From contig NC_057712.1 of the NCBI RefSeq assembly GCF_004010195.1, positions 6,251,299 through 6,315,298 of the forward strand: DNA of 64,000 bases. Reading direction: 5' to 3'. A program made the translations under genes and the position numbers. This document shows, in pieces, positions 3,031 to 45,534 of the stretch (positions are counted from its first letter, which is position 1; the number at the start of each line of letters is the position of its first letter). The notes under the pieces were generated by a model that saw only the letters and a program-made list of their open reading frames with translations, had not been told where the DNA came from and did not search any database. This DNA comes from Chiloscyllium plagiosum (Eukaryota).

Positions 3031-3059
3031 GCCTCCTCCCCCTCTCTGTCACTTTTACA

Positions 3060-6000
3060 ATGGGAGCTGGGACAGCAGTTGCTGCTCAGCCAGGGGCTAG
3101 ATTGTGGATTATGGCATCGATCCTGCTCTTTGGGTGAGTCTGTGCGATGGGGAGAAAGTTGGAAACGGGATGGACGCTCCCATGTTTTTGCTAATTGCTT
3201 CTTCCTCTCTTTAACAGTTTGATATTATCGGTGTCTGCAACAGCTCCTGAAGTCTGGATGCAAAGTGCCCCTCCAGGTCAGTGTTCTATCCAAAGATAAA
3301 GTGTTTGTTTCGTGCTTTGACTCTGAGCTGGTGTCTTTAATGTTGAAGAACTTTCTTTAATCTATTGTTGTAGGTTTGCTGAAGGCTGAATGCCGCGACA
3401 GTGTCTTTTGGGTTGGACTGAATAAGGATTTTCTTGCCGGGAAGTTCTGGCAGATTAGCATTGTTGGTGAGTGTTGCTGCTTTACCTTGGAGTCGGTGTG
3501 TAACAGATCTCTGTTCCCAATATTGGTCTGATGGACCCATCCGTTGTATACCTTTCCTGAGACTGCAAACAATTCCCTGTTTTTTTTTGCTTCACCTCAA
3601 TCTATAAATAACTGGTTGCTTTTACAGTCTTGTAAATTCTTAATGCTTGAATCTTTAAATATTTAAAGTATTAAGCTTCAAACAAAACTTTCACTGATCA
3701 ACAAAGTGTGCAGAAGTAACAACTCTTTTTTTTCAAAGTGATGTTTCATGGTAGTTTTCAGTTGCTGATTCCTTTGGATACAGACAAGATTGTCAGACCT
3801 GTTTTGAATTAGTCCCTGCTCTTTCTGATCTTGTATTTGCCTAACTTGGTATAAAAGCTCTTTGGATGCTACCAGAACTGCTGTGCTCTTCCAGCACCAC
3901 TAACCCAGTTCCTAACTTGGTATTCCCATTGAATCTTGATTTTACTCATGGATTGGTTCATGGTGTGTAAATATTCTGATGTGAAGGACTGTCCTGTTTA
4001 TCTTTGTACTTCTGAAAGTTGGGTTGTCTCTAAGTTGCAATTAGAATTTCCCTTGGGTAGTCTTTGACAGTCTCATGAGATTAAATCTTGATGTTTTGAA
4101 CAGTGGTGAAAGTAACATGGTTTTTGATTTGACTGTTCAGGGTTTGTCTGAACTGCTACTGACCAGTTTTAACTTCCAGGTGTTTATTATGCTTTCCTTT
4201 GGTCAGTACATTGAGGTATAGGAGTTGGAAGGTCATGTTGGAGCTGTACAGGACACTTGGGTCACTTTTGGGATATGAAATTACATTCTAGTCTCCTTTA
4301 GGGAGGATGTTGTGAAGCTAAGGGGAGGTGCTGAAAAAGGCTGGAGGCTACCTTCCCCTGAAGTGTTTGAGGCTGAGGGGTGATCTTTGATCTTTACAAG
4401 ATCATGAGGGGCATAGGATGAATAAATGTATGTTCTTGGGTTAGTGCAGTCCAAAACTAAAGGGTATAAGTCAACATAAGAGGGAAAATTCAAAAGGGGC
4501 AACTTTTTTCATGCATAGGGTGGTGCATATATGGAATGAGCTGAAATCTTCAAAGGCATCTGGATGGGTAAATGAATAGTGAAGGTTTTTGGGGTATGGG
4601 CCAAATGTTGACAAATAGGATTAATCTAGAATATCTCATTGGCAAGGATGAGTTAGACCAAAGGATCTGTTTCCATTCTGTACATCTCTGAATGCTACTA
4701 GTACAGATTTGCAGACTTGTTTATCTCCAAATCTAGAAATGATCATTGTGTGTAGTGATCAGGCATTACTACATCTCCCAATGCAAAAATCAAACTGGCC
4801 ATTTGTTTGTATTGTGGAGTGTTAACACTTGACTTTCCCCCTCTCCAGAAGTGATAGCTCACTGCTTAGTGATTTTGTTTTTTAATTTTTTTTCAGAACC
4901 AACTTACTTCTATATCACAGGCCAATATGTGACAACATGCTGCTATTTTAATCTGTAATGTGATTTTTTTTTTCCCTTAATTTTTGACTTTCACTAGAAA
5001 TTGGGCCTGACATAAGCTATTTCATAGTCCATAACTGAACTGGAAGTTGTGTTGAAGCTGGATTATCCTAGTCTGGGAAGTGCTCTGTAATGAGTTGATT
5101 GCATACTTAACTTTTAATTATTTCTCAAAAAAGCCACCCCAATGAAGTGGCATGCATCTGGCCCTGGTGTTAGCTGATTCAAAAGCCAAATTGCACCTTT
5201 AACTTATGCTGTTACTGGAGCAGCATAGATCCAATTTATTGGAAAGTGTTTACTCATCTTGGATGACTTGCACGATGACCAATTTTAAACCATTGCAAAT
5301 AGTATAATGGCATTAAGATCAAGGAACAGTAAAGGAATCATTCTATGTACTTAGGATATGGGAGCATGGAGTTTCTGGCTTTTAGTTTGCATTTTTGATA
5401 GTTAAGGTTAAAATCCACGAAACTTCAGTTACAATTGAAGGGTAGTGTTGGTCATATGTTAAAGTGCAACTTGACCTTTTGTACTGAGTTTGAGAAGGTG
5501 AAGGAACCAGAATGTAGTCTTATGAATTGGGGAAGTTAGCTACATTGGGAATGCCTACATCCTTAGGCACTTGCATTTCTCAGAGCAATAGGCAGCTTTG
5601 AGTTACTCTGCACTCCTCTGATCCTGGAGTAATGAAAATTATTCAGTTGAGAAAACAATCCGACCCAAGGCTGTGGTGTGTAGTGCGTATGTAGGTTGAC
5701 AACCTTTGTGTCAGGAAGTCTGGCCCAAGATGAGAAATTGCTCTACCACAAAATAGTTGAAGCCAAAATATTGATCCACTGTTATAAGTATCAGAATATG
5801 GGAGGGAGGAGAAACAGGAGAAGCCCAGTGGATGTTCAATGATGTGAAATGGCAAGTGAGCTTGAAGGGTCAAATGTCTATCTTCAGTATAATTTCCTTC
5901 TGAAAACTCCAAGGCATACTTGAACAGCAGTATGCTGACTGGATGTAGCCACTATCAAAACATATATCCCTGTTAAACTGTGGTGTTCATTCATCATGAA

Positions 6001-9000
6001 ATGAGCCACAATGGCATTGGAGGTGACTTACTCTGTTGGAAAAATCATTCTAGACTGTAGATAGCTGCTCTCAGGTGGTCATTACTCATCCTGATGAGTA
6101 ATCATGGGATTTATAATATCACAACAGGAAGCTTTAGCCATGGATTAACTTCTGACAATACAGACTAGCTTGATAAACTTGAGCCAAAATTCTGTTGGGT
6201 ACAGAACATGCTAGTTGTGACTTAACTAACACTGCATGAATTAACAATCTTTAGCTTGATAACAGACTGAAGCTTATCCCAGCCAAGAGGGAGCTTGGCC
6301 GATCAGTCAGATTTGACTTTCCCACCTTCAATGATGTATATTGAGTTTTTAAATCTTTGCATACAAACACTGGCAATGGTGAGGCATCTTGGTTTCCCAT
6401 ACCAGCTGAATTGCCTGCTTTCTGAATACATGCTGAATAGCAGTAGCATGGGAGTATCACCTGAGTTCTGCTCCAAGCCACTGATCATCCTGACTTAATA
6501 TCCCTACTTTAGTGCTGTAACTGCATTGGACTCTACCTACAGCATGTGGACTGCAATGATTTCAGGCAGCTCACCACCTTCAAGGGCAATTAGGGATGGG
6601 AAATATTGACTGAGTGCTCATCTCCTGTAAGTGAATTCCAGAATTAGAAACGTACCTTCTTAACACTTGGCCTGCTAATCCAACCTTGGCTCAACCAGAT
6701 ACAAAACTAGACTGCAAACATTCTGGATTAGTGGTGCTGGAAGAGCACAGTAGTTCAGGCAGCATCCAAGGAGCAGCGAAATTGACGTTTTGGGCAAAAG
6801 CCCTTCAGGGTTTTTGCCCAAAACATTGATTTTGCTGCTCCTTGGATGCTGCCTGAACTACTGTGCTCTTCCAGCATCTGCAGTCATTGTTTTTTACCTT
6901 GCAAACATACTGACCGAGCCTGATGTGCACAAACAGCAATTGACCAATATCGTGCCCTGTGGAGTGTTACAGGACACCAGTTTCTAGTCACATCCACTTT
7001 CTGAATAGTGTGGTCTCAGCCTGTTTCTAAGCCAGTTTTGGATCCAAGCTGCTCTGGTTCTGACTACTTTGGCTGGTAGTCTGCAAGACCTTGTCAAAAG
7101 AAAATCAAGCAAGTTGCATCATCAACTGCACTACCCTCTCTGATCCATCTTGTCACCTGTACAACTTAACCTGTCTGACGTGATCTTATGATAGTCATGC
7201 TGACTGTTTTTGATTTAACTCTTGCCTGTGTTTTTTTTTTGGCAATACTTTCCCATCAATAGGGACTGTTGACACTGGGCTAAGGTTCACTGATCTGCCC
7301 ATATTGTCATCGTTGAATAATTTCAGGCCACGAGCTGGCCTTCAGTCCTCTAACACACCTGTGACCAAAAGATTTTAAAATTCAGGCCCCTGCATTCTCT
7401 CCTCCCTTGCTTTCCACAGCACCCTGGGGTATATCTCATCTAGGTCCTCTAAACCAATTAATACTCCCTCTAATTGTGCTGTGTTCACAATGTATCAGTC
7501 TCCTTCTCTGCAAAGTAATTGGTAAAGAAACCAATGACCACCGACTTAACAATTTAAAGTTACATTTACGAAATCCTCTGGCTCCAACTAATTCATTGCT
7601 TGGATTCCTCTTCCAGTTATCCCCTACTCTATACTTTAGCCTTTTGGAAACAAATTTGAGGGAAACTTTCCCTTAAACTAGTGCCCTGCAATCTTCATAT
7701 ACCCATTAAACATCAGCCTCTAGCAAGTGGCATGAACAGTTGCTCCCTGTAAAGATGTTCACTGAATTGCTTCAGTACAACCCATTAGACTTGCCCAAAG
7801 CCAACCATTCTCTCGAAACAAACCCAGTGATCCTGGAACCAAAGCCCTTGGTCCTACACTGACTCAAGCTACACACCCATCTGATGCCTACCTTTTTTAG
7901 AGTGCTAGCAAGCAATCTTGAACCATGAAGATCCTGATTTTTTTTTTTTTTTTTTCAATGTTGTCTACCTCCCCAAATTCTTGATGCAGGACCTCCTTTC
8001 TAATCCATTTGAGGGGTGAGGGTGGTTGTTCACATGGGTACCAACATGCTGCAATCAGTGGCAGCTTGTCTGCAGTTACAGAAGCAGCTAACTATCTTCC
8101 ATGTTAGTTCTTACCATCTGCCCAGGTGGGTCTGACTGCACTTCCCAGAAGAGACCATAACTCTTGCTGTTTTATGGCACAAACTCCTCTTGAGTTAGAT
8201 GCATTCTGGGGTTTATCCTAACTACCGGCTTTTCTTCTGGTCATCTAATCCTTCCCTGACATTGCCTCCCTTAGTTGCAGGCTGACCACTTTTTTAAAAA
8301 TTGTGCTGTCCATGCAACTCTCAGCTTTGCAGATGCTATATGATGTCTCCAACTAATGTTCAAAGCCTGAACAACCCAGTGCTTGAGCTGATCAAACCAG
8401 CGATTCCTGCAGATCAGGTCATCCAAACATGCAGGAGCATCTACAGATGTCCTTAACACAAGGCTGAGCTTCCTTCCCATAACTTGAGTTTTTTTAAAAA
8501 TCCTAAATTTAAACTCTTGTCCTTCCTCAATGCAACTTTAAAGTAGACAAAAATTTGCCCACTATCCATCGATCAGTTCGTTTTGTCATTTGTCAGCCTC
8601 TTTGCATTCCAAAAGGGTTCCTGTTTCTTTCCATTTTCCATCCCTCTAATACAACACTTTATTTTCTACTCCATGGATTCTCAGGAAATTTTTATTTTTA
8701 AAAATCATGCTCTCTTTGCAGAGCAGAGTCAACCACAGGCAATTCAGCTTAATCTTTTTTCTTTCTCAGATCAGTCTGGCTATATTTTTCCTATCACACC
8801 AAGGTTTGCATCCCAGTGTGGTTATACAATTGCAGTGAATCACCAGAATATTGAATTTCGTGCCTCTGTCCTCAGCTGTCATGTCCACAATTTGGTAAGT
8901 ACTTCTCCTACTTCCAGTATGGAGGTACAGTTTCAAATGTGAATTTTTGTCTTGGCCACTATCAGTGTGATGTAAATATTCCTTTTCAGGACAAAGGCAA

Positions 9001-12000
9001 ATGCAGGTTACTGATGCTTGTATAAACACCAATTTTCTTTTTCAATCTTTATTGTTTCAAGAGACCTTCCTTCAAACAGCAAAAATGGGGATGGGTGAGT
9101 GAGGGAGATAACTAATGGAGAACTGGGCTCCTTGCTGGTTTCAGATAAGAAGTTCAATATGCTACGTCACTAAAGGACTCGAGCCTTCAAGCTTACCATA
9201 TGGGGATATGAGTGAAGTGCATAATATGAAGCTATTGCAGAACTATAGATTTTTCTAATGAGTGATCAATTTTGGATTTTCTTGTATTGTGACCAGATGT
9301 TTCAATCTTAGGTACTGTATTTTAAATTGTTTTGCAGAATGATGAACAGTTCAGTCTTGTTATCCAAATAAAACTATCTGGAACTGATGTGGAAGCTTCA
9401 ACATATATCCAAACTCTCTTGTGTATGTATTCACCATGGGCTGCAAGGGAAATCTTTTGTGAAGAAAACTACATGCAGGTAAAAAAACAGCATTGAATGT
9501 AGCTGTCCAGACTGAGAATGTAAGAAATATGGTACAATGGACCTTTTAATCCTAGACACTTAATACTATACTTTTAAATATTTTAATTTAGATGTAAATG
9601 TGTTTTAATTCTCTTTAAGACTAGAGAGCAATCCTTTAGGCTATTCTGCCTTAATTTTCATCAAGGATTGATGTTTTGGTTCTAAATAAAGGCCAAATAG
9701 TTACACACATGCACACCTTGTTGGTTCTTAACCAGAGTATCAGCTCACTCCAGAATGCACTGGTGAATTATTTTGGATAGTGTTCTTTTCAGAGACCGCA
9801 TGTTCCTATCTGACTACTTCATCTGTGCCAAACTTTTACATTAGCTTATGATCGAGTGTTGTGCTCTTTGCCACAATCTTGACATGTGACTTGCATCTGT
9901 ATGCTAGCTACAGAAATGTAGTTGTTTTTCAATTCCTTACAGGTGTCTGTACAAAGAAATATACCAGATATAGACTATGCCCAAGATGCTGAAGATTGGG
10001 CTTTAGTATTTCCGGAAGTAAGTGTTCTTTCTAAAAAATTTTTTAGCTCTTCTAAAATGAGATGAATTGTGCTTAGTGCTGAAAATGTTACTTTCTATAG
10101 TTTGACCATGTTTGGACTCTTGAGTCTGTATTTTAGCCTCCATCTTAATGAACTCCTTGACTGTCCCTGTGAACTACATACACAGAATGCTGAAATCATC
10201 TCCAAATGGAGGGAACTGATGTTCTAATGAGTTGATCTTGTTAGCATCAAATGCTAATGTCAGATCCTACCAGATGATTAACAACTATGGAATTACTTAA
10301 CTTGCTAAAATGAGAATATAAATTAACTACAAACTAAGGAAACCTGGAATTTGCCATACCTCCTGATTCTGAACAGATCACTACTACAGACTTTTGAGTT
10401 TAGTGGCTGGTGAATGGTGTATGTTCAAATCTAGTACAAAAGTTCATGCCTTGATGCCTGCTTCCTTGCCTTTATACAAACTGGTGCTGTGCAACATAAT
10501 GTCTGTAATGGAGAAAGGTAAGTATGGTCCTTTTTGTGGACTTCTCTTGAAGAGAACAAGAAAAGTACTCTAATATTGGTGCAAGTCTTTTCATATTTGA
10601 CACAAACATTAGTTTACTTTTTACTTTCAATATCATTGAACCTTAATGCCAAGTCAACTTCAAGCATTTTAAGTTTTTATATTTGGACTCTGTCAGTTTC
10701 CCTAACTCAATATATTGAATTCCAATAAGGAATTTGAGTAAGTGTATTTTGGTTGTTTTTTTGGTGGGGGTAAACCGCTCAATGCATTAAAGGGATAAAA
10801 TGGGGAAAACTCCTACTCTGACAATCTAATCCCAAAGATAGTAACAGAAATGCTATTGTCTCCAAAGCAGTATGGGAGGGAGAAGGGGAGTTCTGCATTA
10901 CTTAGTAAACTGCAGAAGTTGTTGTGGAAGGCCTAAATTTATGGAGCGTGTTTAAACAAGTGAGATGCTTTGGCAGTTTAAAAGATTAAGAAATAAAGAT
11001 AATGGAATCCTATTGATACTGAAGGAAGCCTATCACAGCTGTGTCATTGAACAACATTAAAATAGAAATCGGATGACACTAAGGCTGAAGGTAAAAGCAT
11101 TCAATCTTTCTAACTTAATTCTAGTGATTGTCAAACTCATTAGTGATCACAATAAGCTAATAGATCGTGTTCTCATAGTGCCAGGTTTCAGACATTACCC
11201 ATTCAGTACCACTGGCTGATATTGTTGTGCATTAAAGGTATATTTTTACTTAAAATCATGTGATAAGTGTTCCATTTAACTAGTTATGATGCCATGTTCA
11301 AATTCCCTTCAAAGGTTCTTTCTGCTGTTCAGTTTTACCATTCTTTTGGGTCTGATCCCAAGAAATCCTCCAGTGCGAAAGTCCCTTCCTCACATTCTGC
11401 TTTCCGAGTTTCCTAAGTGACTGAGATAGGAGGATTTCAATTGCTTATTATGCCATGGTTACTGACAGTCCTGTTACTCTGCAGAAAATTTGTGTAAGGG
11501 CGCACTTAGGTTTTTCCTCCTAGATTTCTAAATGATCTTATTTAAAACCCTTTTCCTCCAAGGAATCTTTTTTACTAAATTTTTTAATGTCTTAAATTAA
11601 GAATTTACATTTCCAATAGTTGAAAGAAGTACATGATATCAAAGTTAAGTGGAAGGCCCTAACCAGTACAACTGCACAGGGTTTTCACCATACTTGCAAG
11701 CTCAGATTTTTTTTGAGGTTTTTGTAGTGCTTAAAATTTATCCAATTTTTTTAAATACTGGATCCATTCTTAAAGAATGAAGTTGAGGTAGCAACTAAGT
11801 ACATGGGCTTTCCACCACTCGGTGATTAGGGTGGCGAGGTAAGAGGAGGAGCAGCCTGTACAAGTGTACAAACAAAGGAACCAATCTCCTCCTCCTGTTC
11901 CAGTGCTTGAGCATGGATGCACCATGAATGGAATTACTTATCCAACTTGTTGCAATGGTTTCATGGAATTTTCATTGATTTTTACTGTTCTAGGCAAGTA

Positions 12001-15000
12001 GTGCAGAAAGTGGAATATGGCAAGTGGTATTTCACACTCCTGGTGACAATCGGATTATGACTGTGAAAGAAGCACGTCAAATGAACTATGGAATCAATAT
12101 GACAGTGAGTCGTATCTTGCTTCGTGCTCCATACCATACTAATGAGGCTCAAACAGTTTTGGTGAGTTCACTATTTAATTTCCTCATGGTGTTTTATAAC
12201 TGGAACATTACTGCTATATTTGAATATTGCTTGATGTGTAAACTAGTCACTTCTAATTAGGTTCATGGAATTCCTTTGACTGTAATCCGATCAACTACCT
12301 TCTACAAAGAGCATTGGATGGCTCTGCTAATTGACACTGCAGTGGCTTGTCCTCTTGGTAAGAAATCCAATGTTTCCACTTTACTATAGGATGGCTTCTA
12401 ATGGGTAAATGTTAAACCATCTGAAATTGGATAAATTAATGAAGCAAATCTGTTCATCTGAGACTATTTCCCAGCTTTGCTAGTTAACCCTTTCTGCAAC
12501 TGTCAAATATGGTACTCTGGTTCCTCCCCCCACCGACATTCTACTTGCAATCTCTGGTTTGGTCATTCTTAAAACTGATTTGTCAAATCAAATGTTACTT
12601 TGTTTCCCTTTTTTTTTTTTTCCCCCCTAGATGGTACTTCATTCACTGATGACCTAATCATCTGGACAGTACCAAGAATCTTCACTCCACTCGTCACCAT
12701 TGCAGTTCATCAGGACAACACGTCCATGGGAGTAAATGGGATCAAGTTGAATTCCACAACAATGGGAGAAAGAAACTATACCATTGATAAGAATGATACA
12801 GGCCTTGCTATAAGGGTCCCCATTGGAGCACAGGATGGATATTACAAGGTTGAGAAAATTGTCTTTGTGTAGCATCTAATAATCATGTCTATGCAATCTT
12901 CTATTTAAGATGCATTGCAATCTTAAGCTATCATGCCACCTAGTTTAAATCTCAAATTGAATCATAAAAGCCATACATGATAGACAAAGTTGGAATGTAA
13001 TCTTCTTTCAGGGAAGTGTTTACATTCTAATCAGGAGTTTGTCAGTCATCCAGTCCCTGTCATGTTTGGCTTTTTATGAACCCTTTTTAAATATTATCAA
13101 TCTTTAGGACTGATGTTCTTAATTTTTAGAACTTCCTCTAATGCACATTGGTGTAACACCACATGGCAGATAAGCTTCAGTTATATTCTGGGGCATGTCC
13201 ATATTAAGGTAGGTAAATCCTCAGGAACTCAGGATCATCTCCTCCAGAATGCTGGAGGAGGGTCTTGAATAAAACATTCCCTCTTTCCTCCAGAGATCCC
13301 AGAGCACTAGAATAGCCAGCCTATTTTCAAGGGCAACAGGGATAATTTGGGCACGAAGTCTGGTGAGCCTTGTCAGGTAGGAGGGAAATTTTAACTGAAG
13401 ATTCTTGCATTTTCCCACATTTCTGTGGGGAGAATGAACTTTGACTAGATAGCCTTGTGTGGGGAATGTTGCCTCAAACTGGAGTTGAGGTCTCTGATTT
13501 GAGGGCAGGGTAGTAAACATCTACACGGATCCCATGTGACTTTTTCTCTAACAGCTTACCTTGCTAGAATGTGATAAGTTGGGAAAAATGGATACAGAAC
13601 TACCATCATAAGTCTTTTTTTTTTTCTCTAAACCATGAGTAATGTTCCACAGGGATCAGTGGTGAGAACCCTGTTTTAAATGAATCTAAGAATGCAGGTA
13701 GGCTCTTTGGTAAGATTGTACCCAAAAGACTGGGGGATCTGTAGATAGTGAGGGCTGCTAGACAATACACTAGGATACAACAGGACTTGGCACATGAAGA
13801 CTCCTCTGGACTAGAGGCAATGCATTTTGAAAGATCTAATGCAGGAGAGAACTCTCAGCATCAATAAACAGAAGTCTAGGCATGTAGGCCCAACTTCCGT
13901 GGATGAGGTGATCATGAAAGAATTGTTTGGGACTGTATATAAATAGGCAAGTCATTGCAGCTGTATAAACTTTAATCAAGTCACACTTGGAATATTGAGT
14001 ACAGTTCCAGATGATACTCTAAGGATATGGATATTTGTGTAGAGACAACACGTTACCAGAATGTGGCTTGGTTTGGAACATATTAGCTATGGGAAGAGCT
14101 TGGACAAACTTTGGTTTGTTTTCACTTGGACATTTGAAGGGTGGGAGTGACCTGAAATTTACAAAATTGAGACATAGATCCTTCACAGGCTCTCAGCACA
14201 TGTGGTGGAAGGATTCACACTCCAGCCTACATAGAGACTGAAACCTTAACCCAAAGCCTCAGACTACTGACTATTTCAATCAATCTGAACAACTATGTGG
14301 GGAGGCAGGGTGGAAATAACTTCATGTTGGTCTGTTTTTAAATTAAACATCTGCTTTCAGAGCCATGTGGTGGATGGACAGTATGGTATAAAGTACAGCA
14401 TCAATTTGTTCTTGGAGCACCTGTGGAAAGATGAGGCATGGGGACTGAATAAAATCAATGTGATCCACCCAGTTACTACACCCTTTATACCTCAGCCTCT
14501 GGTTCTCATTGATGGTATGTACTTGTGTAAGAAGGGAACAGTTGAGCAAATAGCAGGTTCTATCTTTAAAAAGTAAACATGGCCTTGATATGTAAATGGT
14601 CATGTAATTAAGTTCAAATATTAAGGTGATGGGTTGGTGCCTTGATCCACCTGTAGGCTAAGTGGCAGAAGTACTATCAAATCACGAATCCTGAGATTCA
14701 AAGGATGTTCCAATCAATGTACTTAACCTGGGAAGAATACTGTTCCCTTGTACCAGTCCATCTTTTGGAAGTATCATTTAGTTGGTGAGAGGCTAGTAAA
14801 GAAGCCTTTTGGTTGCTTAAATGTTTAGGCCAGGAATGGATCTTTAGCTGAATTCATATCCAATCACTACAACTGTTTTTTGTCCACAAAAACACATCTC
14901 GTTTTTCTGTGTATTTCAATGTCCTCCAATCACTTGCTACTAGCAAATTCTCCACCGAGATTAAGTTAGGTAAGTAGGGATAAACAAACCTGGCAGTTCA

Positions 15001-18017: not shown

Positions 18018-18094
18018 TCTTTAACTAAAAGCTAATGACCAATTCAAATTGGATTTTTGTCATTAATGTCAAATCAGTGTATACTTGGCTTATA

Positions 18095-30975: not shown

Positions 30976-31089
30976 AACTCTGTTACCATTTTAAATATTC
31001 TGTTGACTTTACCACCAAATTGTACACCATGTTAACATTTAAGATCAGAAAAGACCTTTACCAGTTACCAGAGACTCAGCAAACAGATA

Positions 31090-31292: not shown

Positions 31293-31322
31293 TCTGCTCA
31301 GCCAGGGGCTAGATTGTGGATT

Positions 31323-34300: not shown

Positions 34301-37300
34301 GATGAAATTTTCAATGGTGGCCTATTCTTCGTAATTCGTTTTAATTTGCAATGCTTCATTCTAATGAATGCAACCATGGCTGTAGACTATATTTTCTTGA
34401 ACAATGGCAAAAGTAGGCCCAATGTATTTGTTTTTTTTTTCTTCCAACACTGTTTGAAGAAATTGCCGTGTACTGCCTTTTAACCTGTTTGGCTTGTTAA
34501 CTTGAGCTTTCCTAAGTGTCTAATCAAAACATGAGTAAAGTTATGGATCATCACTGGGCCAAAATGTTAATTTTAGAATTGTGATCTTTTAAAAAAATGT
34601 TTAACTTTTTTTGAGCCCCAGAACATGTCAAAAGGCCTTTTTCTGACACAAGATGTCAGAGCATTGATTATATCAAATTGTCTTGTGGAATTTCCATTTT
34701 GCTTGCAGCTTCACACTTCTAATAGAGATAGGCAAGTTGGAAGTCAGGGACACTGGTGTCTCTCTTTGGTTTTCCTTTATGGCATTGTACATGAACTTCA
34801 TGTTGAAGGTGACCTCCAGTAATATTTGCAGAATTTGTGACAGTCCTTGTTGCAGCTTCAGTGGAGTTTTAATTATCTTTATTGCTGATCTAGGCAAGTA
34901 GTGCAGAAAGTGGAATATGGCAAGTGGTATTCCATATATCTGGTGACAAAAGGACTATGACTGTCAAAGAAGCACATCAAATGAATTATGGAATCAATAG
35001 TACAATGTCTCGTATATTGCTTCGTGCTCCATATCATACAAATGAGGCTCAAACTGTTTTGGTAAGTTCATTATACTACTCTGGCTTTCCTGAGCCTTTT
35101 TAGATTGCATGTAAATGCAGTAACTGATGCTTTTTTATAATTAGGTCCATGGTGTGCCCTTGTCAGTAATACGATCAAGTACTTTTTATAAACAGCACTG
35201 GATGATTCTTGTTGTTGACACTGCTGTGGCTTGTCCTCTTGGTAAGATTGCTAATCTTGTATCTTTTAAATTAAGCACAATTGTAGGCTTCATTGAAGTC
35301 TATTTACACACCTCCTTTTAATATTCCCTGTTTCATTTGAAACATTACGGTCTGGTCTAAGCAGTAGAGTGAGGGCTGAGTACTCTTCATGACCCTTAGG
35401 GAGCTGCTTCGACTTCTATGGAGTTAGTGGAGATATTTAGGACTAAATTAGTTAGGCTAATATTGGAATACTGCATTCAATTCTAGTCTCCCTCTGTAGA
35501 CAGGATGTTGTGAAACCTGAAAGGGCTCAAAGATTTACAAGATGTTGCCAGGGTTTGAGCAAAAAGGAAAGCCTGAATAGGCTGGGACTATTTTTCCTTC
35601 TAACCTCAGGCTCAGGCTGAGCCTCTTTTATAGAGGCTTTAAAAATCCAGGGGCATGATATGGTGAATAGATAAGTCTTATCGCTGATGGGAGTCCAGAA
35701 CTGGAGGGCATAGGTCCCTTTTCTTTCCCTCACCTTAAACCTAACAGCCAACTTTCTCATGCAGAGGATGGTGCACATGTGGAATGAGCCTTCAGAGGAA
35801 GCGTGGAGGTTTGTAGAATTGCAACATTTCAAGGCACCTGGATGTGTATGAATAAGGGTTTAGATGATATGGAACTAGATTAATTTTAGGATATCTGGTT
35901 GGCATGGACAAGTTGGACTGCAGGGTCTGAATCCATGCTGTACATTCTAACTCTATTTTTAGCAATTCTAAACCTACTACTTGTTATCCCTCAGATGGTA
36001 CTTCATTCACTGATGACCTAATCATCTGGACAGTACCAAGAATCTTCACTCCACTTGTCACCAGTGCAGTTCATCAGGACAACACCTCCATGGGAGTAAA
36101 TGGGATCAAGTTGAATTCCACAACAATGGGAGAAAGAAACTATACCATTGATAAGAATGATACAGGCCTTGCTATAAGGGTCCCCATTGGAGCACAGGAT
36201 GGATATTACAAGGTTGGATTTTGGATTTTGCCTTGCAAGTGAAAGGATAAAAGCAGCTAACTCAAACGATCTTCAGTATTTCATAAGAGCAGAAGGCCAT
36301 TCAGTTTGTCAAATCTGTGGTTGCTCTGATATGTACTTCTACTCCTGTACCAGCTCAATGACTCATGATTTTAGTTTACTAGAAATGTAATATGACCTTG
36401 AATCTCAATGATATCTTCTGAGCAAAGCACTGAAGACAAGATTTTGATTAGATTTCTCATTTAATGAAGAAAATCATTCTAGAGTTGCCTTTCCTCTAGC
36501 ATCCTGCACTGCAGATGCTCTCCAGATCTAATCTAACTAGTCCCTTCAAGTTTGTCTAAAAAAAATCACCCCACATTCTTAATTTTAGGTGTGCCAGTCC
36601 AACCTGCTCAACTTTCTTTCTCCAAGACTACAGTTAGTCACTAGTTTGACTCTTGGAAACTTCCTCTAGACTGCTTCCAATGCAAGTGTCTCCCCCCTTT
36701 CGGTAAAGAAACTAAACAGTACACCATGTTCTGTACAGTTGTAGGAGGACTTCTAAATGCATTTCCCACACTACAGAAAAGACTAACATTCTATTCATCC
36801 TAATTAGTTTACCTTCATGCTAACAGTTGTGCTGTCTATGAACTAGGACATCTGATTCCTCTACAGCATTCCAGTCTCTTTGAGAGAATAGAAAGCTAGA
36901 TCATTTACAATGGAGGAGTTGACATTTCTCCACATTGCATTCTACCTGCTTTTCACCCTTATCTTGTACCCCTCATTTTATTTGTAACTTCTCAACTTGC
37001 CAAATTTATTATGCAAAATAAGAAACACCATCATCATTGAATAAAAACCAATGTAGATTGTAAACTATCCCTGAAGCATGCCAGTATTTCACCAGCTAGC
37101 AATTTATCCAGACTGTTTTGTTTCCTACTGATCAGTCATCTTTCAAGTTCCCTAACTACCCTTTTTGTGGTATCTTGTTAAATGCCTTCTAGAAGTTCCA
37201 GGTGCATGATCTTTTCCTTGTTATCAACATTGATTTTAAGTGCTCAATTCCAACCCTTATGAAAGGAAAACCTTGCTGTGTGATTAAAATGTCCTGTTGG

Positions 37301-40300
37301 TACCTCCTGCTAGCTATCCCAAAAACTAATTAGATTTGAAATAGCCTGCAGCTTCCTGCTTTATCTAACCTTCAATTTGTAGAACTGCAGATGTAACCTC
37401 TAATTACAATCTTCCAAAATTGCCTAACCGCCCACTCCCAGATGGGTCCTTATTTGCCAGTGTGGCACTAGAAAAGCTCAGCAGGTTGAGGAGCAAGAGT
37501 CTGTTTTGGGCATAAGCCCTTCCAACACCATACTTTTTGACTCTCCAGCATCTGCAGTCCTCCCTTTTCTCCTAGGTCCTTAGACCCTTTTAACTTGACA
37601 ACCGTGCCTTTCTTGCTGCAGCAGAGTTGCACACATCACATCCCTTACCTGCTAGAAATCCAGTCCTATCTATGAATGTTCTGTATTGCTTTTTACTTTG
37701 GTGTCAATTTAACCATGTGGCTATAAATGTTGTACACTAGTGAGCCTTAATGGTTTTACCTGTCTTACTGCAATTTAGTGTTTGCTGTCCCTCCCAGTTG
37801 CATTGATTTTTGATTTTTTTATCACTGCCTGCATTTGAACTTGATACAATTTCCTTGACTTAAGTTTTCCAGACTCCACCTATGTACAAACCTGGCCTAT
37901 CTGTAGTCTTGTGCAGACCAGCTGTCACAGTTGGATCCTTGCCCCAATTCCCCTCTAGCATTGAGGATTAACCTGTCCTTGCTATCAGATTCCCTGTTAT
38001 TTCCCCCTGCCTTGTCTCCCAAATCAAAATCCTGTAGCCTGCTTGTTGTCAAACTTCAGAAATCCCAAATCTGTTGGGCGAAGTATTGGAGGAGCCTCTA
38101 AAAGGATCTAGGTGTCCATCCGTCTGTCCACCCACCCTGTAACATGTGAAATTCCTAGTTTGTGACAAACTTGTGGAACCAAACCAGTCCAATAAAATGA
38201 TCTTTCCTGATTCACTGCAGTGTTTGAAATGGACTCCGATCATCAACCATAGTTGACAGGTTCTTGCCAGAAAGTTCAGTGCCTCTACACCTTGAATAGT
38301 TTCATATGTGAACAAATTGTAGTTCTATACACTATTTATATCCTGATGAAGACCAGTATCCAAATATTCAAGTGTGGTAAACATACAAACTTTAGATTAT
38401 GTTAATAGGACTTTACCATCTAAAATTACCAATTTATCAAACTGCCCACTCATTTCTTACCTCACTATTACTTCCACAGAGCCATGTGGTGGATGGACAG
38501 TATGGTATAAAGTACAGCATCAATTTGTTCTTGGAGCACCTGTGGAAAGATGAGGCATGGGGACTGAATAAAATCAACGTGATCCACCCAGTTACTACAC
38601 CCTTTATACCTCAGCCATTGGTTCTCATTGATGGTATGTACATGCCAAATTTTCTAAGATGGCTGAACTAACTTAGAATGGGATTCCTCTCCACTCAAAT
38701 TCTCTTGGAAAAATGTTTATTAATATAAGGCATAACTTGATTTTAGGCTGTTTTAAATGATTGTCATTATTGTACAATAATGACATCTAATGGCTGTTTT
38801 TCCACAATGGGCTTTGTGGAGGCAGGACACTTGTCCCTTGTCTTGCACTATTGGTTTGGTAGCTGGGAGAGAAAGGGAGAATAAGAACTGGAGTGAACTC
38901 CAGTTGGTATTTCACTTTTAATATCTTCCAATGATGGGCTTACTGTTTTTAAATCCAAGCCAAATGTGACTGTTCTAACTTACAAATTTATGGCTTGAGA
39001 ATGTTAACAGCCTATTGAACCCCAAGCCAACCAATAGTTAAGACCTCCAATTCCAGGATGGAAGCTGAATTGATCAATTGTTACCACAGTCACAAGTCAG
39101 GGAACATTCAAGGCTGCCAAGCCTTTTTTTTTTTTTACAAGAGTGGAAAAATGGTATTTGGAGAGATCTCTATGAACAACAGGATTTAGCCTTTTTTTTT
39201 TTTCCCCAGCAATATCCTGGTTTATGACACTTGAGACACCTGAGTGAAGTATTAGTCTTATCAGTTAGATAAATTGAAGAGTTAAGGTTGAGTCTTTCGA
39301 TTATGTAGAAAGTGATTGAATTCATTACAGATTTTTCTGCTGAGACTGGCACAAGTGCAAGTGTTTTTAAAAAATGTATGCTATTCAAATTGCAAGTAGC
39401 ATGTCCAGTCAGCGAGCTTTGGTCACGTTACAGATGTTTTGACCCACTAATTTTTCTGGCTGTTAAGTCTTCACAGAACTGAAACTAAACCAGTTTCATC
39501 TACAATATAATGCCATTCCAAAATATTCACGCTTCCTCAAACTGAAGTAGTTTCTATTCTAATCAAGAATATTTTTAATCATTCTAAAAATTCATTTTTA
39601 ACTTTATTTCCTTCACGATTAATCTTGACCAAGCATCTGTTGCCTCTTGTCACAAATGATATTCCAATCTAAAATAGTTGAAGTTTAACACCAATCCAGA
39701 CTTTTGCTGTAGCTTTAATGAATTAAATGAGGATTATAAATCCACAAATCACTGGTGTCAGGAATGCAGACTTCAAAATGTGGTAGACTTCAGTTAAGTG
39801 ACTTTCTTCACTATTGAATATTTCTGGAACAAATTCAACTTGACCAGAAAAATAACTGGTTCCTTTTCCTCAATTCTGTGCCAACATATCTCTGGAATAA
39901 CTAAATGGATTAGAGTTTACTGCTGCTAAAACTCTCAGTAATCACTGCGACTTTCAGGTTGTCGTGGCACTTTGCTTTGCTTTACCCACTCAAATTTCTT
40001 GCCTTTGCCAAAGTTGTCAAAAGAATAGAGTAGAAATTTGAAATTTCTAATTTAAATCCACCCTTTTGATGTACTAAATTTGTCACCATTCCAAGGTGAC
40101 TCTAGTCTTTAAGGTTAAAGTCACTTTTTTGTGCTTGACAACTCAGTCTTTCAGTTGGCTTATGAGTTTATTTGTACAAGGATTTTTATTCTCCATGTTT
40201 TTGGGCCTTTTTGACAATGGATTTTGTTAGGTGCATTCCTTATGGCAAACAGTAACAGGAATTTGTCAAATCATGACATTCTGACCAGGTTTTTGGTCCA

Positions 40301-43300
40301 GCTTATACAATTTTTTTTTTTAAACCTATGGATGAGCTGAAGGAATGAATTTTATTCCAATCTGAATATTTCACTGGAAAATACTGCAGTCTCCTGATTT
40401 TCTGGGAAGTCATACATGACTTAACCTGCTGAATATTCCAAACCTCTTATTGGAATTAAAGGGCAAATAGTTATTTATGATACAGATGCATGGTACATCT
40501 TGTTTGTTAGGCTCCCTCAAGTGTGGATTTGTTTCTTTGCATTTCTATTCAATGTGAGTTATGCACATTTTTTTTAGATTTTGAAGACCTCTCATAACTG
40601 CACACAGGAAAGAATCTTGTACAAAGCCTCTTATTTCTAGCTATGTTCTAATTACAGCCAGAAAACTCTTGGATATTCCTCCTGTAATCTGTTTTATGAT
40701 AAACTTAGTCATACAGTGCTCTTGTCAATGACCCTCGGGCTATTTCTGAACTAGGTCTGATTCTTCCATACTTTAAGCAATTGCTTCTAAAGTGACTTTT
40801 TTTATTGCATGACTGCACTTTATCCATGCTACAATCACTCACTTTACAAACTAGTCCCATTAATTGAGTGACCTCTCCATACATATACTGCTAACTTTTT
40901 GTCCTGTCTGCCTTCCCTCTGGAAGGCAGTAATCAGCCAACAGCAATGACTGACTTGCTTCAGTGTAACAATTCTATTGGCCTGCCTCCTTCAGAATAAG
41001 GAGTTAATTTTTGAAATAAAACTCAGTTTCTAGTGTTCTGATTTGCTTTAGCATAGAATGTTTTGTTTGTTTTAGTTTTTCCCTCACCATCTCTCTGGCA
41101 GGCTGAAGAAACCTGCTCTACCAAAACTGCAAAAATTTTCTATCCCTTTCCTGATGCTTTCTGAAGATTGCAGTGAAAATGAACACCTGAATAATCAGTC
41201 TTGAGCTTCCAACAATTGGTTTAGTATGTCCAGTCTCCTTGCAATAGAAGTGTGCTTGTCCAACTTTTTAATTGGACTTTCTCCGTGAGTTTGAAAAGTT
41301 TGTTTGTATTCCCTGCAATTACCTTTTGAATCTCCAGATTCAGGCAGGAGGGTTGGGGGTTGGAGGGAGGGAGGAGAGAAGAGAAGATTCCTTTCACCAG
41401 AAGGTGGTGGTCTGGAATGCACTGTCTGGGAAAGTAGACAAGAAGCCTTTAAGAAAAAGTACTTTTGTTGAACACTCATAATATTCTCAAAACTAAGGGC
41501 TGAGTGTAGTGATGTTTGGTACATATTTGAGCCAAAGGGCTTGTGTACTAAATAAATAAGATTTTGTGACTTTATTTCCTCACCATTTTTGTCACCTGTA
41601 ATTAACAATGGGTACTCTCCAGAACTACTAAACTTTTAGTCACCCAAAGACTTAATTATTTCTTTTTTGCTCACTCTCCATAAACCTTCAACCCTCTGTC
41701 TAAATTTGAGACACTAATGTTGCAACATCCACTGCATGTAAGGGCAATGAGTTCCACAGATTTATAATACTTGAGGTAACTTCCACATTTTAGTTGAATA
41801 TACTACCACTTTTAGAATGAGGTCAGTTATAGGATAAACTATCACATGAAGCATCCCCTCAACTTAACTTTGTAAGTTAAGCAGACATAATTCTGTGGGG
41901 AGAACATAAAAACTGCAGATGCTGGAGATCAGTCATGTGGTGTTGGAAAAAGACAGCTGATCAGGCAGCACCCAAGGAGCAAGAGCTATTTCAAGCAAAG
42001 ATCTTCAAGAATGTTAAGGGAAGGGTTACACAAGGGGGCTGAGAGAAAAGTCATGTGGTGTTGGAAAAAGACAGCTGATCAGGCAGCACCCAAGGAGCAA
42101 GAGCTATTTCAAGCAAAGATCTTCAAGAATGTTAAGGGAAGGGTTACACAAGGGGGCTGAGAGAAAGTGGGGCTGGGGAAGATAGCTGGGAATGCAGTTG
42201 GTAGGTTAAGTGGGGGTGATGGTGATACTCCAGAGTAGAGCAGATGGGTGGGAAGGAAGATGAACAGCTCAAGAGGGTGGTGCTGAGTTGGGGTTGGGAA
42301 GATCTGGGAACTGGTGAAATAGGCATTCATCCTGTGATTTGGAGGGTCCCAAGGCAGATGTGTTCTTCAGTATACAGGCTAACTTCCTTGCTTTCTACAT
42401 TTAAGAGATTTAATGTTTAAATTCCTTTCTATAGAATGCTGAACAACACCTATTGATGCTCACTTTTAAGAACATGCTTCTGTTGCTGGTCTTTCTTGGA
42501 AATCCCAAATGACCCACAGTGAACATTCCGGGTTTACTGAATGTGGCTCATCTAAAAATTTTGAGTGAACTCTAACTTATTGGGAATACTGTTTTAACTC
42601 ACTACTTGGAGCTTGTCCAAAGTTACCCTTCAGTTCTCTAAACCCAAACAATATATTTTACCTTTTTTGGAAACTTGCTTCCTCAATTATAAATAGTCAT
42701 TAAGCCTACAAATGGGACAAAGGAAAAGCTGTTCAAATATCTAATTGGTGGTTTGGATGAGTTAGTTACACAGATGCCAATTTTTTTTTTTCTTCCAGAT
42801 ACCATTCCTGAGCAATGGCTATTCAATGTCTCATTGGGCAACTTCCTTCCTGATGTAGAACTCACCAAGCTCACTCTGGGCACACAGTCCTTCCCTGTGG
42901 ATGAAGAAACCCTGATATTTAATGTGTACACTGGGACTAACCCAGATGAGACCACCTTAAATAGAATCTTCATCCTGGAAGTTCCCATGGAGTCACCAGT
43001 TGTAGACAGAAAGGTAATGGGATGTCTGGGTGAATGGCTTCCACGTTGGGAGATGGTGCTGACTTGTGGCTTCCTCCTTCCAGTATATAGGTGATGGTGT
43101 TGAACAATATACCCTTGATGTCATCTTCACAATGACTGTGGTTCCAGAAAATCTAACATTCACACATCCAGCTCACTTAATACATCAGCACACAATAGGT
43201 AGGTGGTTCTTGCCCTGATGTAGACTGCAAAGTGATCCGTGAAAATGCTTTTTGAAGTAATATGAAATGTGCCTTTTGCTAGTACTTCCTGTGGCTGATG

Positions 43301-45534
43301 GCTTTTGTGATGAAGAGAACGTGACCTTGATGGTAACACGTGGAATGTCAGATCGGTACTGGATTCCTTTCNNNNNNNNNNNNNNNNNNNNNNNNNNNNN
43401 NNNNNNNNNNNNNNNNNNNNNNNNNNNNNNNNNNNNNNNNNNNNNNNGACTGTGTGGAGTTTGCACGTTCTCCCCGTGTCTGCGTGGGTTTCCTCCGGGT
43501 GCTCCGGTTTCCTCCCACAGTCCAAAGATGTGCAGGGTCAGGTGAATTGGCCATACTAAATTGCCCGTAGTGTTAGGTAAGGGGTAAATGTAGGGGATGG
43601 GTGGGTTTCGCTTCGGCGGGTCGGTGTGGACTTGTTGGGCCGAAGGGCCTGTTTCCACACTGTAATCTAATCTAAAAAATCTAAAAATAACTATTAATCT
43701 TAAATGAAACTGAATGTTATGAAGTGCCTGACAGTAAAGGGTTTTTACAGCAATTTCCAGTTGCAGTGGCACTACCCTTTGGTATTTTCAATCGGACACT
43801 AAAGGCTGACAACTAGACAACTGCCCTTCTGAGGCAGGGAAACAGTTGGGGATTAAAGAATATACGCTGTGATGTTAAAAATTCAGAGAATGTGGCAACA
43901 CACTCTGCCTACCTCTCACAAAATGTCTCCTGAGCCAGCTGAGGGTCATTCTTTCCTGTCGTTTAATCAGTTCCTTTATCCACTGCCAGGGTTTACTCTG
44001 AATCCCCACAGCTTTGAGTTTAATGAATGGGTTTTTTGGTGTGAAATTTTCTCAAGAGCAGTTTGGAAGTTGAGATTTGCACATTCCATTCAAATTGTCT
44101 CTTCCTAAATTAGGTTAAAGGTTAAGAAATGTGCTCAGGCAGTGTGGTCTCTTTGTCTCTAATGGTTGATATTTTATACTGAATAGAAGCGAGTCTTATC
44201 TGTAGTTATCACCTTCATCCCCTCCCCCACTCACCCATTGTACTCTATGCTACTTTCTCCCCACCCCCAACCTCCTCTAGCTTATCTCTCCTCGCTTCAG
44301 GCTCTCTGCCTTTATTCCTGATGAAGGGCTTTTGCCCGAAATGTCGATTTTTGCTGAAGCTCCTCGAAGCTGCCTGAACTGCTGTGCTCTTCCAGCACCA
44401 TTGATCCAGAAAGGTAAATCGCCACCTACAGTGGCTCAATATTAGAACACCTCTGTCGGAGGGGTAAATTTTGAGATCCAGTCTGACTTGATTGCAGCTA
44501 TTTTAATTAAGAATTGGAATGAGGATTTTCCTTTCCACCCCTAATTTTATTGGACCTCTTTGCTTTGTTGGTTTGCAGATGTGTCCTATTCTGCCCTGTA
44601 TGAGGAAGGTGACTATCCAGTCGTGAAGTATCTGACTGATCCTGTCTATGTTGAAGTGCAACTGCTACACAATGAAGATCCACAAATTGAATTGTTCCTG
44701 CAAGACTGTTGGGCAACTGCGTCACCGGACAGACGCAGCATTCCACAGTGGCCTCTAATTATCAACAGGCAAGTAGGAGCTGCTGCTTTGTAAAGGGGGG
44801 ACAGTTTTGACATCTGCCTTTGGGTGGCAAGTGACTATCTTTTGTTTTACAGCTGTGAGAACAAAGCTGACTTGTATAGAACCACCTTCCATCCGGTAGC
44901 CGAGAGTGAGAGGGTTAAATATCCTGCTCACTTCAAAAGGTTTGAAGTCCAGATGTTTACTTTCACCTTGGGCAATTATACTGAGGAACAGGTGAGGATT
45001 TGTCCAGTACAGTGTTTTTTCAGTATGTTTGTATTCCGCTATTGTTATCATTTTCTCTCCCCCAGGTGTATTTCCATTGCAGCGTAGCCTTGTGCAGGAA
45101 GGAGCCAGTAAATAGATTCCTGTGTCCAGGTCAATGTGTACCAAGGAAACAACGAATAGGTAATGCTTGAAGATGGGCACCAAACCTGTGCTGTTTGCCT
45201 GTAATCCTGTACTGACCAGCTGTGTAATTACTACAGGGCGAAGTGCTGACAGAACCCACCATGTGCAGGGGTATGTGTCATCAGGGGCTGTTCTGATTTC
45301 TACAGAATTCTCTACAGTAGAGAACCAGATGGAGCAAGGTGAAAAATTGCTTTAGAATGGCTTTGAAACAATTTATCAAATCTGACAATTAACTAATCCA
45401 GTTTGCTTTTGTCTTTAGGTGACAATAACCTGTCCTCTTCCAAGGCGGTCCTGATTGGAGGCTCAGCAATAATTGTTACTTTAATGGTGTTTAGTGTCAT
45501 CAGTTGTAAGTGCCAAATGAAAAGATTGGACTAA
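31323..45534 (+). CDS. zpax: Zona pellucida protein AX-like, copy B (3' exon 13 to exon 17 absent from this assembly)
   Basis: Exons: 31323-31345, 31430-31488, 31586-31678, 32932-33059, 33807-33947, 34207-34287, 34894-35061, 35145-35241, 35995-36212, 38480-38633, 42799-43013, 43084-43198, 43283-(43371, gap), [44410-44413, last 4 nt of exon 17], 44579-44768, 44853-44991, 45066-45159, 45237-45338, 45419-45534. No stops or frameshifts in the visible exons, and indels relative to A are in-frame. About 943 aa if the missing part equals copy A. Confidence 0.78.
35455..35950 (+). mobile_element. CR1 LINE 3' fragment in intron 8 of copy B
   Basis: TTGGAATACTGCATTCAATTCT...GGATGTTGTGAAAC...TGGAATGAGC, matching the CR1 3' end. 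Confidence 0.75.
37453..37574. mobile_element. Short fold-back Penelope-like pLTR insertion with 8-bp TSD
   Basis: GGTCCTTA at 37445-37452 and 37575-37582. Contains GGGCATAAGCCCTT and CCAGCATCTGCAGTCCTC. Confidence 0.6.
41895..42375 (-). mobile_element. Penelope-like 3' end/pLTR containing a perfect 118-bp tandem duplication
   Basis: CTGCAGATGCTGGAGATC and CAGGCAGCA.CCAAGGAGCA family motifs. 41931-42048 equals 42049-42166. Confidence 0.7.
43372..43447. other. Assembly gap (76 N)
   Basis: Run of N that begins inside exon 13 of copy B. Confidence 1.
43448..43676 (+). mobile_element. Young V-SINE (HE1-like), 5' end hidden by the gap
   Basis: Consensus-like V-domain with CpGs retained and a TCTAATCTAA tail. 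Confidence 0.9.
44205..44409 (+). mobile_element. Penelope-like pLTR with a minimal hammerhead core (44318-44345)
   Basis: CTGATGA-A-GGGC-TTTT-GCCC-GAAA-TGTC, followed by the family tail GCTGCCTGAACTGCTGTGCTCTTCCAGCACCA. Confidence 0.8.

What the first reader, a model, noticed from the sequence alone, without database searches (positions are those of the whole stretch)
3060..45534. Tandem ZPAX paralogs under patchwork concerted evolution, with the N-terminal ZP-N region and TM tail spared
Seen: A and B are near-identical, introns included, over about 3082-3549 vs 31294-31761 (exons 1-3), 15380-15960 vs 42791-43371, and 16912-17849 vs 44410-45347. Exons 4-8 are clearly diverged: exon 4 has about 27/43 and exon 5 has 34/47 identical residues by hand count, with in-frame indels in exons 4 and 6. 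The long introns do not align, and the last exon differs. Established: the ZP module polymerises egg-coat filaments, and N-terminal ZP-N domains (mammalian ZP2-N1, abalone VERL repeats) contact sperm. In VERL the first repeats escape homogenisation. Inference: an old duplication whose structural core is kept identical by gene conversion while the N-terminal, putative recognition region diversifies, here in an internally fertilising fish.
Basis: partly seen in the sequence, partly recalled or inferred. Interest (0 to 1): 0.8.

Follow-up and report, generated by a model that had tools for sequence, protein, structure and literature searches.

The report
Shark egg-coat twins share one core
Two neighbouring shark egg-coat genes are almost identical over most of their length yet differ in one front section that has stayed distinct across many shark groups, likely because DNA copying between them has gone on for over 170 million years while selection probably protected that section.

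Summary
The window holds two head-to-tail ZPAX genes (A 3060-18017; B ~31293-45534). Exons 1-3, 9-13 and 18-21, with their short introns, are 98-100% identical; exons 4-8 and 22 are diverged (dS 0.71 vs 0.018). In five shark species with both copies, exons 9-20 group by species and exons 4-6 by paralog (AU tests reject the alternatives). Conversion has therefore continued in each lineage since at least the Jurassic.

Three corrections. (2) B lacks exons 13b-17 here, most likely through a gap misfill. (3) The spared part is the last two thirds of ZP-N1 plus ZP-N2, not all N-terminal ZP-Ns, and it is not fast-evolving: dN/dS is 0.22 and it is about as conserved across sharks as the core. It matches the ZP2 N1-N2 cleavage/cross-linking unit.

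Selection versus mechanical escape of short exons is unresolved. I found no paper on this pair. The scan noted a similar process once, in shark TNF copies on another genome. A new, long-lived member of a known kind.

The parts
3060..18017 (+). ZPAX copy A, 22 coding exons, 952 aa, open frame; spliced translation identical to stored protein P0015
3082..3549 (+). A exons 1-3 with introns 1-2 (signal peptide, first strands of ZP-N1); homogenised with 31294-31761 (465/468)
8770..10017 (+). A exons 4 (8770-8894), 5 (9338-9478), 6 (9943-10017): rest of ZP-N1, start of ZP-N2 and most of its predicted bc loop; group by paralog
11994..12357 (+). A exons 7 (11994-12161) and 8 (12261-12357): rest of ZP-N2; diverged here, partly homogenised in some lineages
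12631..12848 (+). A exon 9 (ZP-N3), 215/218 to B exon 9; identity stops at the exon edges
14361..14514 (+). A exon 10 (ZP-N3), 151/154 to B exon 10; identity stops at the exon edges
15380..17849 (+). A exons 11-21 with short introns (ZP-N4, N5, ZP module, C-terminal region); homogenised core. 15961-16911 has no B counterpart in this assembly
17917..18017 (+). A exon 22, hydrophobic tail and stop; diverged from B
31293..45534 (+). ZPAX copy B; first in-frame ATG at 31323; exons 1-13a and 18-22 present, without in-frame stops
32932..35241 (+). B exons 4 (32932-33059), 5 (33807-33947), 6 (34207-34287), 7 (34894-35061), 8 (35145-35241): paralog-specific N1-N2 region
35995..38633 (+). B exon 9 (35995-36212) and exon 10 (38480-38633), homogenised exon islands
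42791..43371 (+). B exons 11, 12 and first part of 13; 580/581 to A
43372..44411 (.). 76-N gap plus 964 bp that is 98.3% identical to G000:C24:23460193-23461153, standing where B exons 13b-17 belong; most likely a gap misfill
44412..45347 (+). B end of exon 17 to exon 21, homogenised with A
45419..45534 (+). B exon 22, hydrophobic tail and stop

Best explanation
These are two tandem ZPAX egg-coat genes whose core exons group by species and whose exons 4-6 group by paralog across sharks, likely because non-allelic gene conversion has homogenised them since at least the Jurassic while selection probably kept the ZP-N1/ZP-N2 tip of each copy distinct. SHOWN: mosaic identity; opposite tree topologies; 11 substitutions shared by both copies within each of two congeners; purifying selection in the spared part; the spared part is predicted to be N1 (from residue 76) plus N2, including the loop that aligns with the ZP2-N2 cleavage loop. 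INFERRED: (1) conversion between copies about 28 kb apart works wherever about 150 bp or more of near-identity persists, so exon clusters with short introns, and single exons 9 and 10, keep exchanging while long introns drift apart. (2) Early after duplication B changed its N1-N2 surface; conversions erasing this were selected against until divergence itself blocked exchange. (3) The shared ZP module would make A and B interchangeable type II filament subunits carrying two different tips. The tips most likely differ in cross-linking or protease-triggered hardening of the envelope, not in species-specific sperm binding.
For: Quartet sites over 10 non-independent pairs of 5 species, species-type/paralog-type: exons 2-3 20/0, exons 4-6 1/151, exons 9-21 824/0. 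Trees: B clade 99.8/100 in exons 4-6; A+B pairs of the four non-catshark species at 96.6/97 or higher in exons 9-20. AU tests: A+B of this species as a clade in exons 4-6, p 0.00025; all B copies as a clade in the core, p 3e-6; A copies of two congeners as a clade in the core, p 0.014. dS 0.71 vs 0.018. For selection: 17 positions, all in exons 4-6, share no residue between 7 A and 8 B proteins; B stem branch 0.19; exons 7-8 flank a short intron like the converted clusters, yet are diverged. Domains: model pLDDT 84; residues 44-149 match ZP1-N1 (Z 14.8, rmsd 2.1, 101 aligned); 151-392 match mouse ZP2-N2N3 (Z 12.1, rmsd 5.7, 201 aligned); the fragment of cleaved Xenopus ZP2 aligns from residue 197 (Z 11.9, rmsd 5.1, 167 aligned) (also E 0.005 by profile). 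In ZP2 the N2 bc loop is cut, N1 controls the cut, and N1-deleted eggs still bind sperm (bioRxiv 10.1101/2023.06.21.544075, passages).
Against: Exon length alone sorts most of the pattern: isolated exons of 154 and 218 bp are converted, those of 75-141 bp are not, and the 168-bp exon is intermediate. One chance escape in the ancestor would be inherited by all lineages, so the shared pattern is not independent evidence of selection. Rate acceleration of B is weak: 19 vs 8 sites (p 0.052) and 17 vs 6 (p 0.035) with a ray outgroup, but p 0.39-0.83 in all 5 tests with the chimaera. Boundaries move: exons 7-8 are partly homogenised in Heterodontus; exons 19-21 group by paralog between two catsharks (0/11). 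No function, cleavage or expression was tested. The ZPAX bc loop is longer than in ZP2 and predicted partly helical. Other species were seen as annotated proteins only.
Confidence: 0.6

Rival explanations
1. Same old duplication and ongoing conversion, but exons 4-8 and 22 escaped neutrally: their introns diverged, the exons are too short to seed exchange, and each copy is now simply under purifying selection with no distinct function.
For: Converted isolated exons are 154 and 218 bp, spared ones 75-141 bp, exon 7 (168 bp) is intermediate; dN/dS 0.22; boundaries differ between lineages; relative-rate excess not robust to outgroup.
Against: Intron 7 is only 99/83 bp, in the range of the homogenised introns (70-165 bp), yet unalignable. 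Amino-acid differences cluster: 8 consecutive nonsynonymous codons in exon 5, next to a 19-codon run with 2 synonymous changes. Long B stem. Both copies are retained in five species.
Confidence: 0.3
2. One reading: the spared N-terminal ZP-N region is a sperm-recognition surface that diversifies, as in abalone VERL or the classical ZP2-N1 model.
For: The spared region includes most of a ZP-N1 fold. Reviews link duplicated ZP-N domains of ZP2 and VERL to species-specific fertilisation (PMC8830517, passages).
Against: dN/dS 0.22. B exons 4-6 are 85% identical between bamboo shark and catshark vs 79% for the core, and 85% vs 82% to Heterodontus. Exon 3 of N1 is homogenised. Mouse eggs lacking ZP2-N1 still bind sperm.
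Confidence: 0.08
3. The identical tracts are an assembly collapse or consensus artefact, or B is a broken copy.
For: A gap with foreign fill lies inside B's core, so this assembly did struggle here. B lacks A's first ATG and TATA-like element.
Against: Each of four other species has its own near-identical core pair (603/608, 493/499, 605/609, 578/607). The congener's B and the Hemiscyllium B have exons 13-17. A separate small contig joins B intron 10 to the shared tract and runs 45 bp past the gap. Contigs of other runs break at the tract edges, and depth over the core is 1.2, 1.7, 1.8 and 2.4 times the unique part in 4 of 4 runs (a hint only).
Confidence: 0.02

Closest known systems
Peaks of divergence in duplicates under gene conversion: primate red/green opsins, RHD/RHCE (PMC3924837, passages); copepod GOT1p1/p2 (PMC3728101, abstract); Arabidopsis halleri HMA4 (10.1101/2025.10.29.685298, search listing)
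   Same: Tandem copies about 25 kb apart, homogenised by conversion, with an island that groups by paralog across species.
   Different: Age: at least Early-Middle Jurassic vs 30-40 My for opsins. In opsins the introns are homogenised and an exon is spared; here long introns are lost to homology, single exons 9 and 10 are homogenised only to their splice sites, and the island spans about 200 codons.
Abalone VERL ZP-N repeat array
   Same: Egg-coat ZP protein; some ZP-N domains homogenised, N-terminal ones not (escape of the first repeats recalled, not from a call; PMC8830517 passages give only the 23 repeats and coevolution with lysin).
   Different: VERL homogenises repeats inside one gene, and its free repeats evolve fast (recalled). 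Here exchange is between two genes at equivalent positions, and the spared domains are under purifying selection.
ZP2 N-terminal region (N1-N2-N3) of mammals and Xenopus
   Same: Predicted fold of residues 151-392 matches ZP2-N2N3; the spared exon 6 lies in the loop that ZP2 has cleaved; the loop is acidic.
   Different: ZPAX has five free ZP-N domains and a longer, predicted partly helical loop; cleavage of ZPAX is untested.
ZPAX family (zona pellucida protein AX)
   Same: Five free ZP-N folds plus ZP-N/ZP-C module and hydrophobic tail; homologs named ZPAX in whale shark, rays and chimaera.
   Different: Lineage-specific ZPAX duplications are reported for ray-finned fishes (PMC6262864, passages). 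The words shark, concerted or conversion did not occur with a shark ZPAX case in the main text of the four ZP papers read.

Membership tests
ZPAX | C-terminal ZP-N/ZP-C module | tested here: met
   PF23344 E 1.6e-13 at 621-709 and PF00100 E 1.3e-39 at 733-867; ZP2 ZP-C Z 20.1, rmsd 2.6, 156 aligned
ZPAX | Several free N-terminal ZP-N repeats, the first of ZP1/ZP2-N1 type | tested here: met
   Five beta-sandwich domains before the module in a pLDDT 84 model; residues 44-149 vs ZP1-N1 Z 14.8
ZPAX | Closest named relatives are ZPAX over full length | tested here: met
   85% to whale shark 'zona pellucida protein AX 1'; about 59% to chimaera 'Egg envelope component ZPAX'. No tree with ZP2 outgroups was built
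ZPAX | Made in the ovary and built into the egg envelope | not tested
   No RNA run was laid
Concerted evolution by interlocus gene conversion | Paralogs group by species in affected regions although the duplication is older | tested here: met
Concerted evolution by interlocus gene conversion | Neutral sites (synonymous, intronic) are homogenised too | tested here: met
   dS 0.018; seven short introns 98.6-100% identical
Concerted evolution by interlocus gene conversion | Shared polymorphism between copies in populations | tested here: inconclusive
   Other runs show the B letter at A 3514, 12700 and 15443 in 4 of 4 runs, but contigs merge the copies and drop variants
Selection-maintained divergence peak (Teshima-Innan type) | Divergence centred on adaptive amino-acid differences, not explained by loss of homology | tested here: inconclusive
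   Clustered diagnostic residues and a long B stem vs exon-length pattern and weak rate tests
VERL-like rapidly evolving recognition domain | Elevated dN/dS and fast divergence between species in the spared domains | tested here: not met
   dN/dS 0.22 between paralogs; cross-species identity about equal to core; site models not run
ZP2-type cleavage/hardening unit | Acidic loop between strands B and C of ZP-N2 | tested here: met
   Predicted loop 169-197, mostly exon 6; cleaved Xenopus fragment aligns from 197
ZP2-type cleavage/hardening unit | Loop is cut by an egg astacin protease and triggers oligomerisation | not testable with these tools
   Needs biochemistry

The most novel reading that the evidence does not exclude
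Sharks have kept, for 170-250 million years, a two-tip egg-coat system: gene conversion re-synchronises one filament-forming core between two ZPAX genes, down to single exons, while selection holds apart two N1-N2 tips whose loops are processed or cross-linked differently, giving a ZP2-like hardening switch in two tunable versions.
Probability: 0.2. Interest if true: 0.75.

Novelty: new member of a known kind. Interest (0 to 1): 0.5.

Why it matters
It is a clean, very old case of mosaic concerted evolution, replicated in five shark species, with variable boundaries and exon-limited tracts that allow tract-length and selection models to be tested against each other. The divergence island points to ZP-N1/N2 as the part of ZPAX where copies differ, in a protein of little-known function, and it coincides with the unit that controls hardening in ZP2. 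Practically: whole-protein trees would misdate this pair as recent species-specific duplications, and the annotated 739-aa B protein (P0002) likely lacks about 200 residues through an assembly error.

Tried and rejected
Genomic DNA of the other species could not be obtained (look-up of encoding contigs closed). Cross-species tests therefore rest on annotated proteins: no intron comparison, no codon site models, no GENECONV.

No A-type was found for Hemiscyllium or Rhincodon and no B-type for Mustelus, rays or Heptranchias; this is weak evidence of absence.

No RNA holder listed. The first fold, with 21 sequences, failed (pLDDT 26.5). Foldseek 'pdb' was busy and not run; only pdb_via was used. 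The Atlas gave ZP1/4-Ig-like and ZPAX clusters at 0.90-0.92 and no structure (a lead only).

A duplication older than the shark-ray split was not rejected (AU p 0.072) and not shown.

mRNA-templated conversion was considered for exons 9-10 and rejected as the general mechanism, since seven short introns are homogenised too. Recent duplication followed by fast change in exons 4-8 was rejected: dS 0.71 and paralog grouping. Strong purifying selection alone was rejected: synonymous and intronic identity, and the core differs by about 20% between shark orders while A and B stay together. No haplotig for B's upstream region was found in G000. No third close copy was found in G000. No other ZPAX exons and no ORF above 207 aa were found in the window.
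Full report
OBSERVATION. Self-BLAST and translated comparison show two same-strand copies of a 22-exon gene. Copy A (3060-18017) is open for 952 codons, and its spliced product is identical to a stored protein named from Chiloscyllium plagiosum. Copy B (about 31293-45534) has exons 1-13a and 18-22 without in-frame stops. The three tracts are as stated: 465/468, 580/581 and 935/938. Per exon, nucleotide identity is 98-100% for exons 1-3, 9-13a and 18-21; 72, 79, 72, 88 and 78% for exons 4-8; and 54% for exon 22. Seven short introns are 98.6-100% identical. Introns 5, 7 and 8 align no better than shuffles, and intron 4 only weakly. dS is 0.71 in exons 4-8 against 0.018 in the homogenised exons.

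ASSEMBLY. A 76-N gap ends tract 2. The 964 bp after it are 98.3% identical to a gap-free place on another chromosome-size contig, C24, and stand where B exons 13b-17 belong. A's counterpart is single-copy in G000 apart from 46 bp on a 1,283-bp contig. That contig is 99.3% identical to B intron 10 plus exons 11-13 and continues 45 bp past the gap in exon 13. The B proteins of C. punctatum and Hemiscyllium contain these exons. Four runs of the organism that holds this stretch best (4 samples, 2 studies; source sample not excluded) were laid on A. In the longest pieces listed, contigs start or stop at the tract edges (12823/12852, 14387/14468, 15380/15409, 17782), and one run has a 1,949-bp contig with 629 non-A bases followed by 15380-16699 (that these bases are B intron 10 is inferred). 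Median depth over the core is 1.2-2.4 times the unique part in 4 of 4 runs (the tool warns this is no copy number). So the identity is most likely real and B's hole most likely a misfill.

OTHER SHARKS. Two exon searches and two cluster look-ups returned homologs. Five species have a usable A and B pair: C. plagiosum, C. punctatum, Stegostoma, Scyliorhinus torazame and Heterodontus; in each, both records list the same longest-contig length. Left out of the trees: three fragments from older annotations, ray isoforms, 5 of 7 Heptranchias copies, short unnamed members and a lizard ZP1. Within-species identity in exons 9-20 is 402/404, 603/608, 493/499, 578/607 and 605/609; in exons 4-6 it is 79/114, 81/114, 76/114, 83/115 and 83/114. 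Quartet sites (species-type/paralog-type, 10 non-independent pairs): exons 2-3 20/0; exons 4-6 1/151; exon 7 22/10; exon 8 7/33; exons 9-21 824/0; exon 22 4/22. Between the two congeners alone the counts are 11/0 in the homogenised exons and 0/44 in exons 4-8, so exchange continued after they split. Trees agree, and AU tests reject the swapped topologies. The B clade in exons 4-6 includes a sawshark protein (97/99). Galeomorph orders diversified in the Early-Middle Jurassic, and sharks other than Hexanchiformes plus rays share an ancestor at 256 Ma (HPD 212-312) (10.64898/2026.02.13.705779, passages). The pair is therefore at least about 170 My old, probably more. Against uniformity: Heterodontus has exons 7-8 partly homogenised and an A-like tail on both copies; between two catsharks exons 19-21 group by paralog. 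The Heterodontus records have consecutive accessions; that they come from two genomic copies is inferred from their differences.

WHAT IS SPARED. A 104-sequence AlphaFold2 model (pLDDT 84) gives five free ZP-N folds, a ZP module and a tail. Residues 44-149 match ZP1-N1, and 151-392 match ZP2-N2N3. Exon 3 (residues 45-75) is homogenised. Exons 4-5 carry the rest of N1; exons 6-8 carry N2; exons 9-14 (N3-N5) are homogenised. The C-terminal fragment of cleaved Xenopus ZP2 aligns from residue 197, so the acidic loop 169-197, mostly exon 6, occupies the place of the ZP2-N2 bc loop. In ZP2 that loop is cut after fertilisation, N1 promotes the cut, cleavage drives cross-linking, N1-deleted eggs still bind sperm, and type II subunits (including ZPAX) appear interchangeable in one protofilament (10.1101/2023.06.21.544075, passages). 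Seventeen positions among exons 3-9 share no residue between 7 A and 8 B proteins, all in exons 4-6.

NOT A FAST-EVOLVING DOMAIN. A-vs-B dN/dS is 0.23 for exons 4-6 and 0.22 for exons 4-8 (CI 0.14-0.35). Orthologue identity in exons 4-6 equals or exceeds that of the core in 7 of 10 same-paralog comparisons (A-A: 97/98, 89/86, 87/79, 80/81, 81/84; B-B: 99/98, 92/87, 85/79, 85/82, 89/84). The picture is old divergence followed by stasis.

MECHANISM. Conversion is inferred from the mosaic, the homogenised neutral sites and the trees. Why exons 4-8 escape is open. For selection: clustered replacements, a long B stem, and a short intron 7 that nevertheless diverged. For mechanical escape: isolated exons of 154 bp or more convert and those of 141 bp or less do not (a minimum homology length near 150-200 bp is recalled from mammalian work, not from a call); B's rate excess is borderline and vanishes with the chimaera outgroup. 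I favour selection first and mechanical locking later (0.6 vs 0.3). The functional step, different cross-linking or processing of two tips on one interchangeable core, is an untested inference by analogy with ZP2.

KNOWN WORK. Divergence peaks under conversion are established (PMC3924837, passages; PMC3728101, abstract). ZPAX architecture and lineage-specific duplications are described (PMC9154058, PMC6262864, PMC8830517, PMC13361971; passages; supplements not opened). Six searches listed no paper on a shark ZPAX pair or its concerted evolution; the library lacks most subscription papers. One earlier scan note describes a similar mosaic in shark TNF copies on another genome (unchecked).

VERDICT. 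Observation confirmed; conversion reading strongly supported; recognition-diversification reading not supported. New member of a known kind, notable for its age, replication and exon-limited tracts. Interest 0.5.

Noticed in passing
window 31095-31252: B's upstream region is a G-rich tandem repeat; the 300 bp before exon 1 hold 8 CANNTG boxes, 6 of them CAGGTG (A has 2; window background 0.25 per 300 bp). B seems to lack the counterpart of A ~3006-3062, with its TATA-like element and first ATG, which the Hemiscyllium B protein keeps. E-boxes as oocyte ZP promoter elements: recalled.
   Followed up: partly
window 43448-44411; G000:C24:23460193-23461153: Foreign 964-bp segment bounded by repeats; it explains why the annotated B protein (P0002, 739 aa) lacks about 200 residues.
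   Followed up: yes
P0008, P0033-P0038: Heptranchias has seven 946-aa ZPAX records differing by 2-32 residues, with A-like exons 4-5: a likely homogenised tandem array.
   Followed up: partly
P0001: The 1,934-aa Pristis model fuses this gene to a second ZPAX only about 41% identical, suggesting an adjacent older paralog; no such gene lies in this window.
   Followed up: partly
L010 (G000:C101976:1395877-1399080): A further, distant ZPAX-family gene, exons 39-46% identical to A.
   Followed up: partly
P0009, P0039: Both sawshark records look alike from mid exon 5 on (55/56 in exons 5-6), and the longer one is B-type; no A-type sawshark record was found.
   Followed up: no
window 12700: A's Ile at residue 301 is absent from the other shark proteins shown, and 4 of 4 other runs read the B letter here: a private variant or an error.
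   Followed up: partly
window 41921-42166, 53183-53674, 56978-57600, 29-1213 vs 24076-25250: A 118-bp tandem duplication in B intron 10, two long inverted repeats, and LINE-like remnants about 82% alike (LINE label recalled).
   Followed up: no
window 17271 and 44769: Intron 18 has a GC-AG donor in both copies.
   Followed up: no
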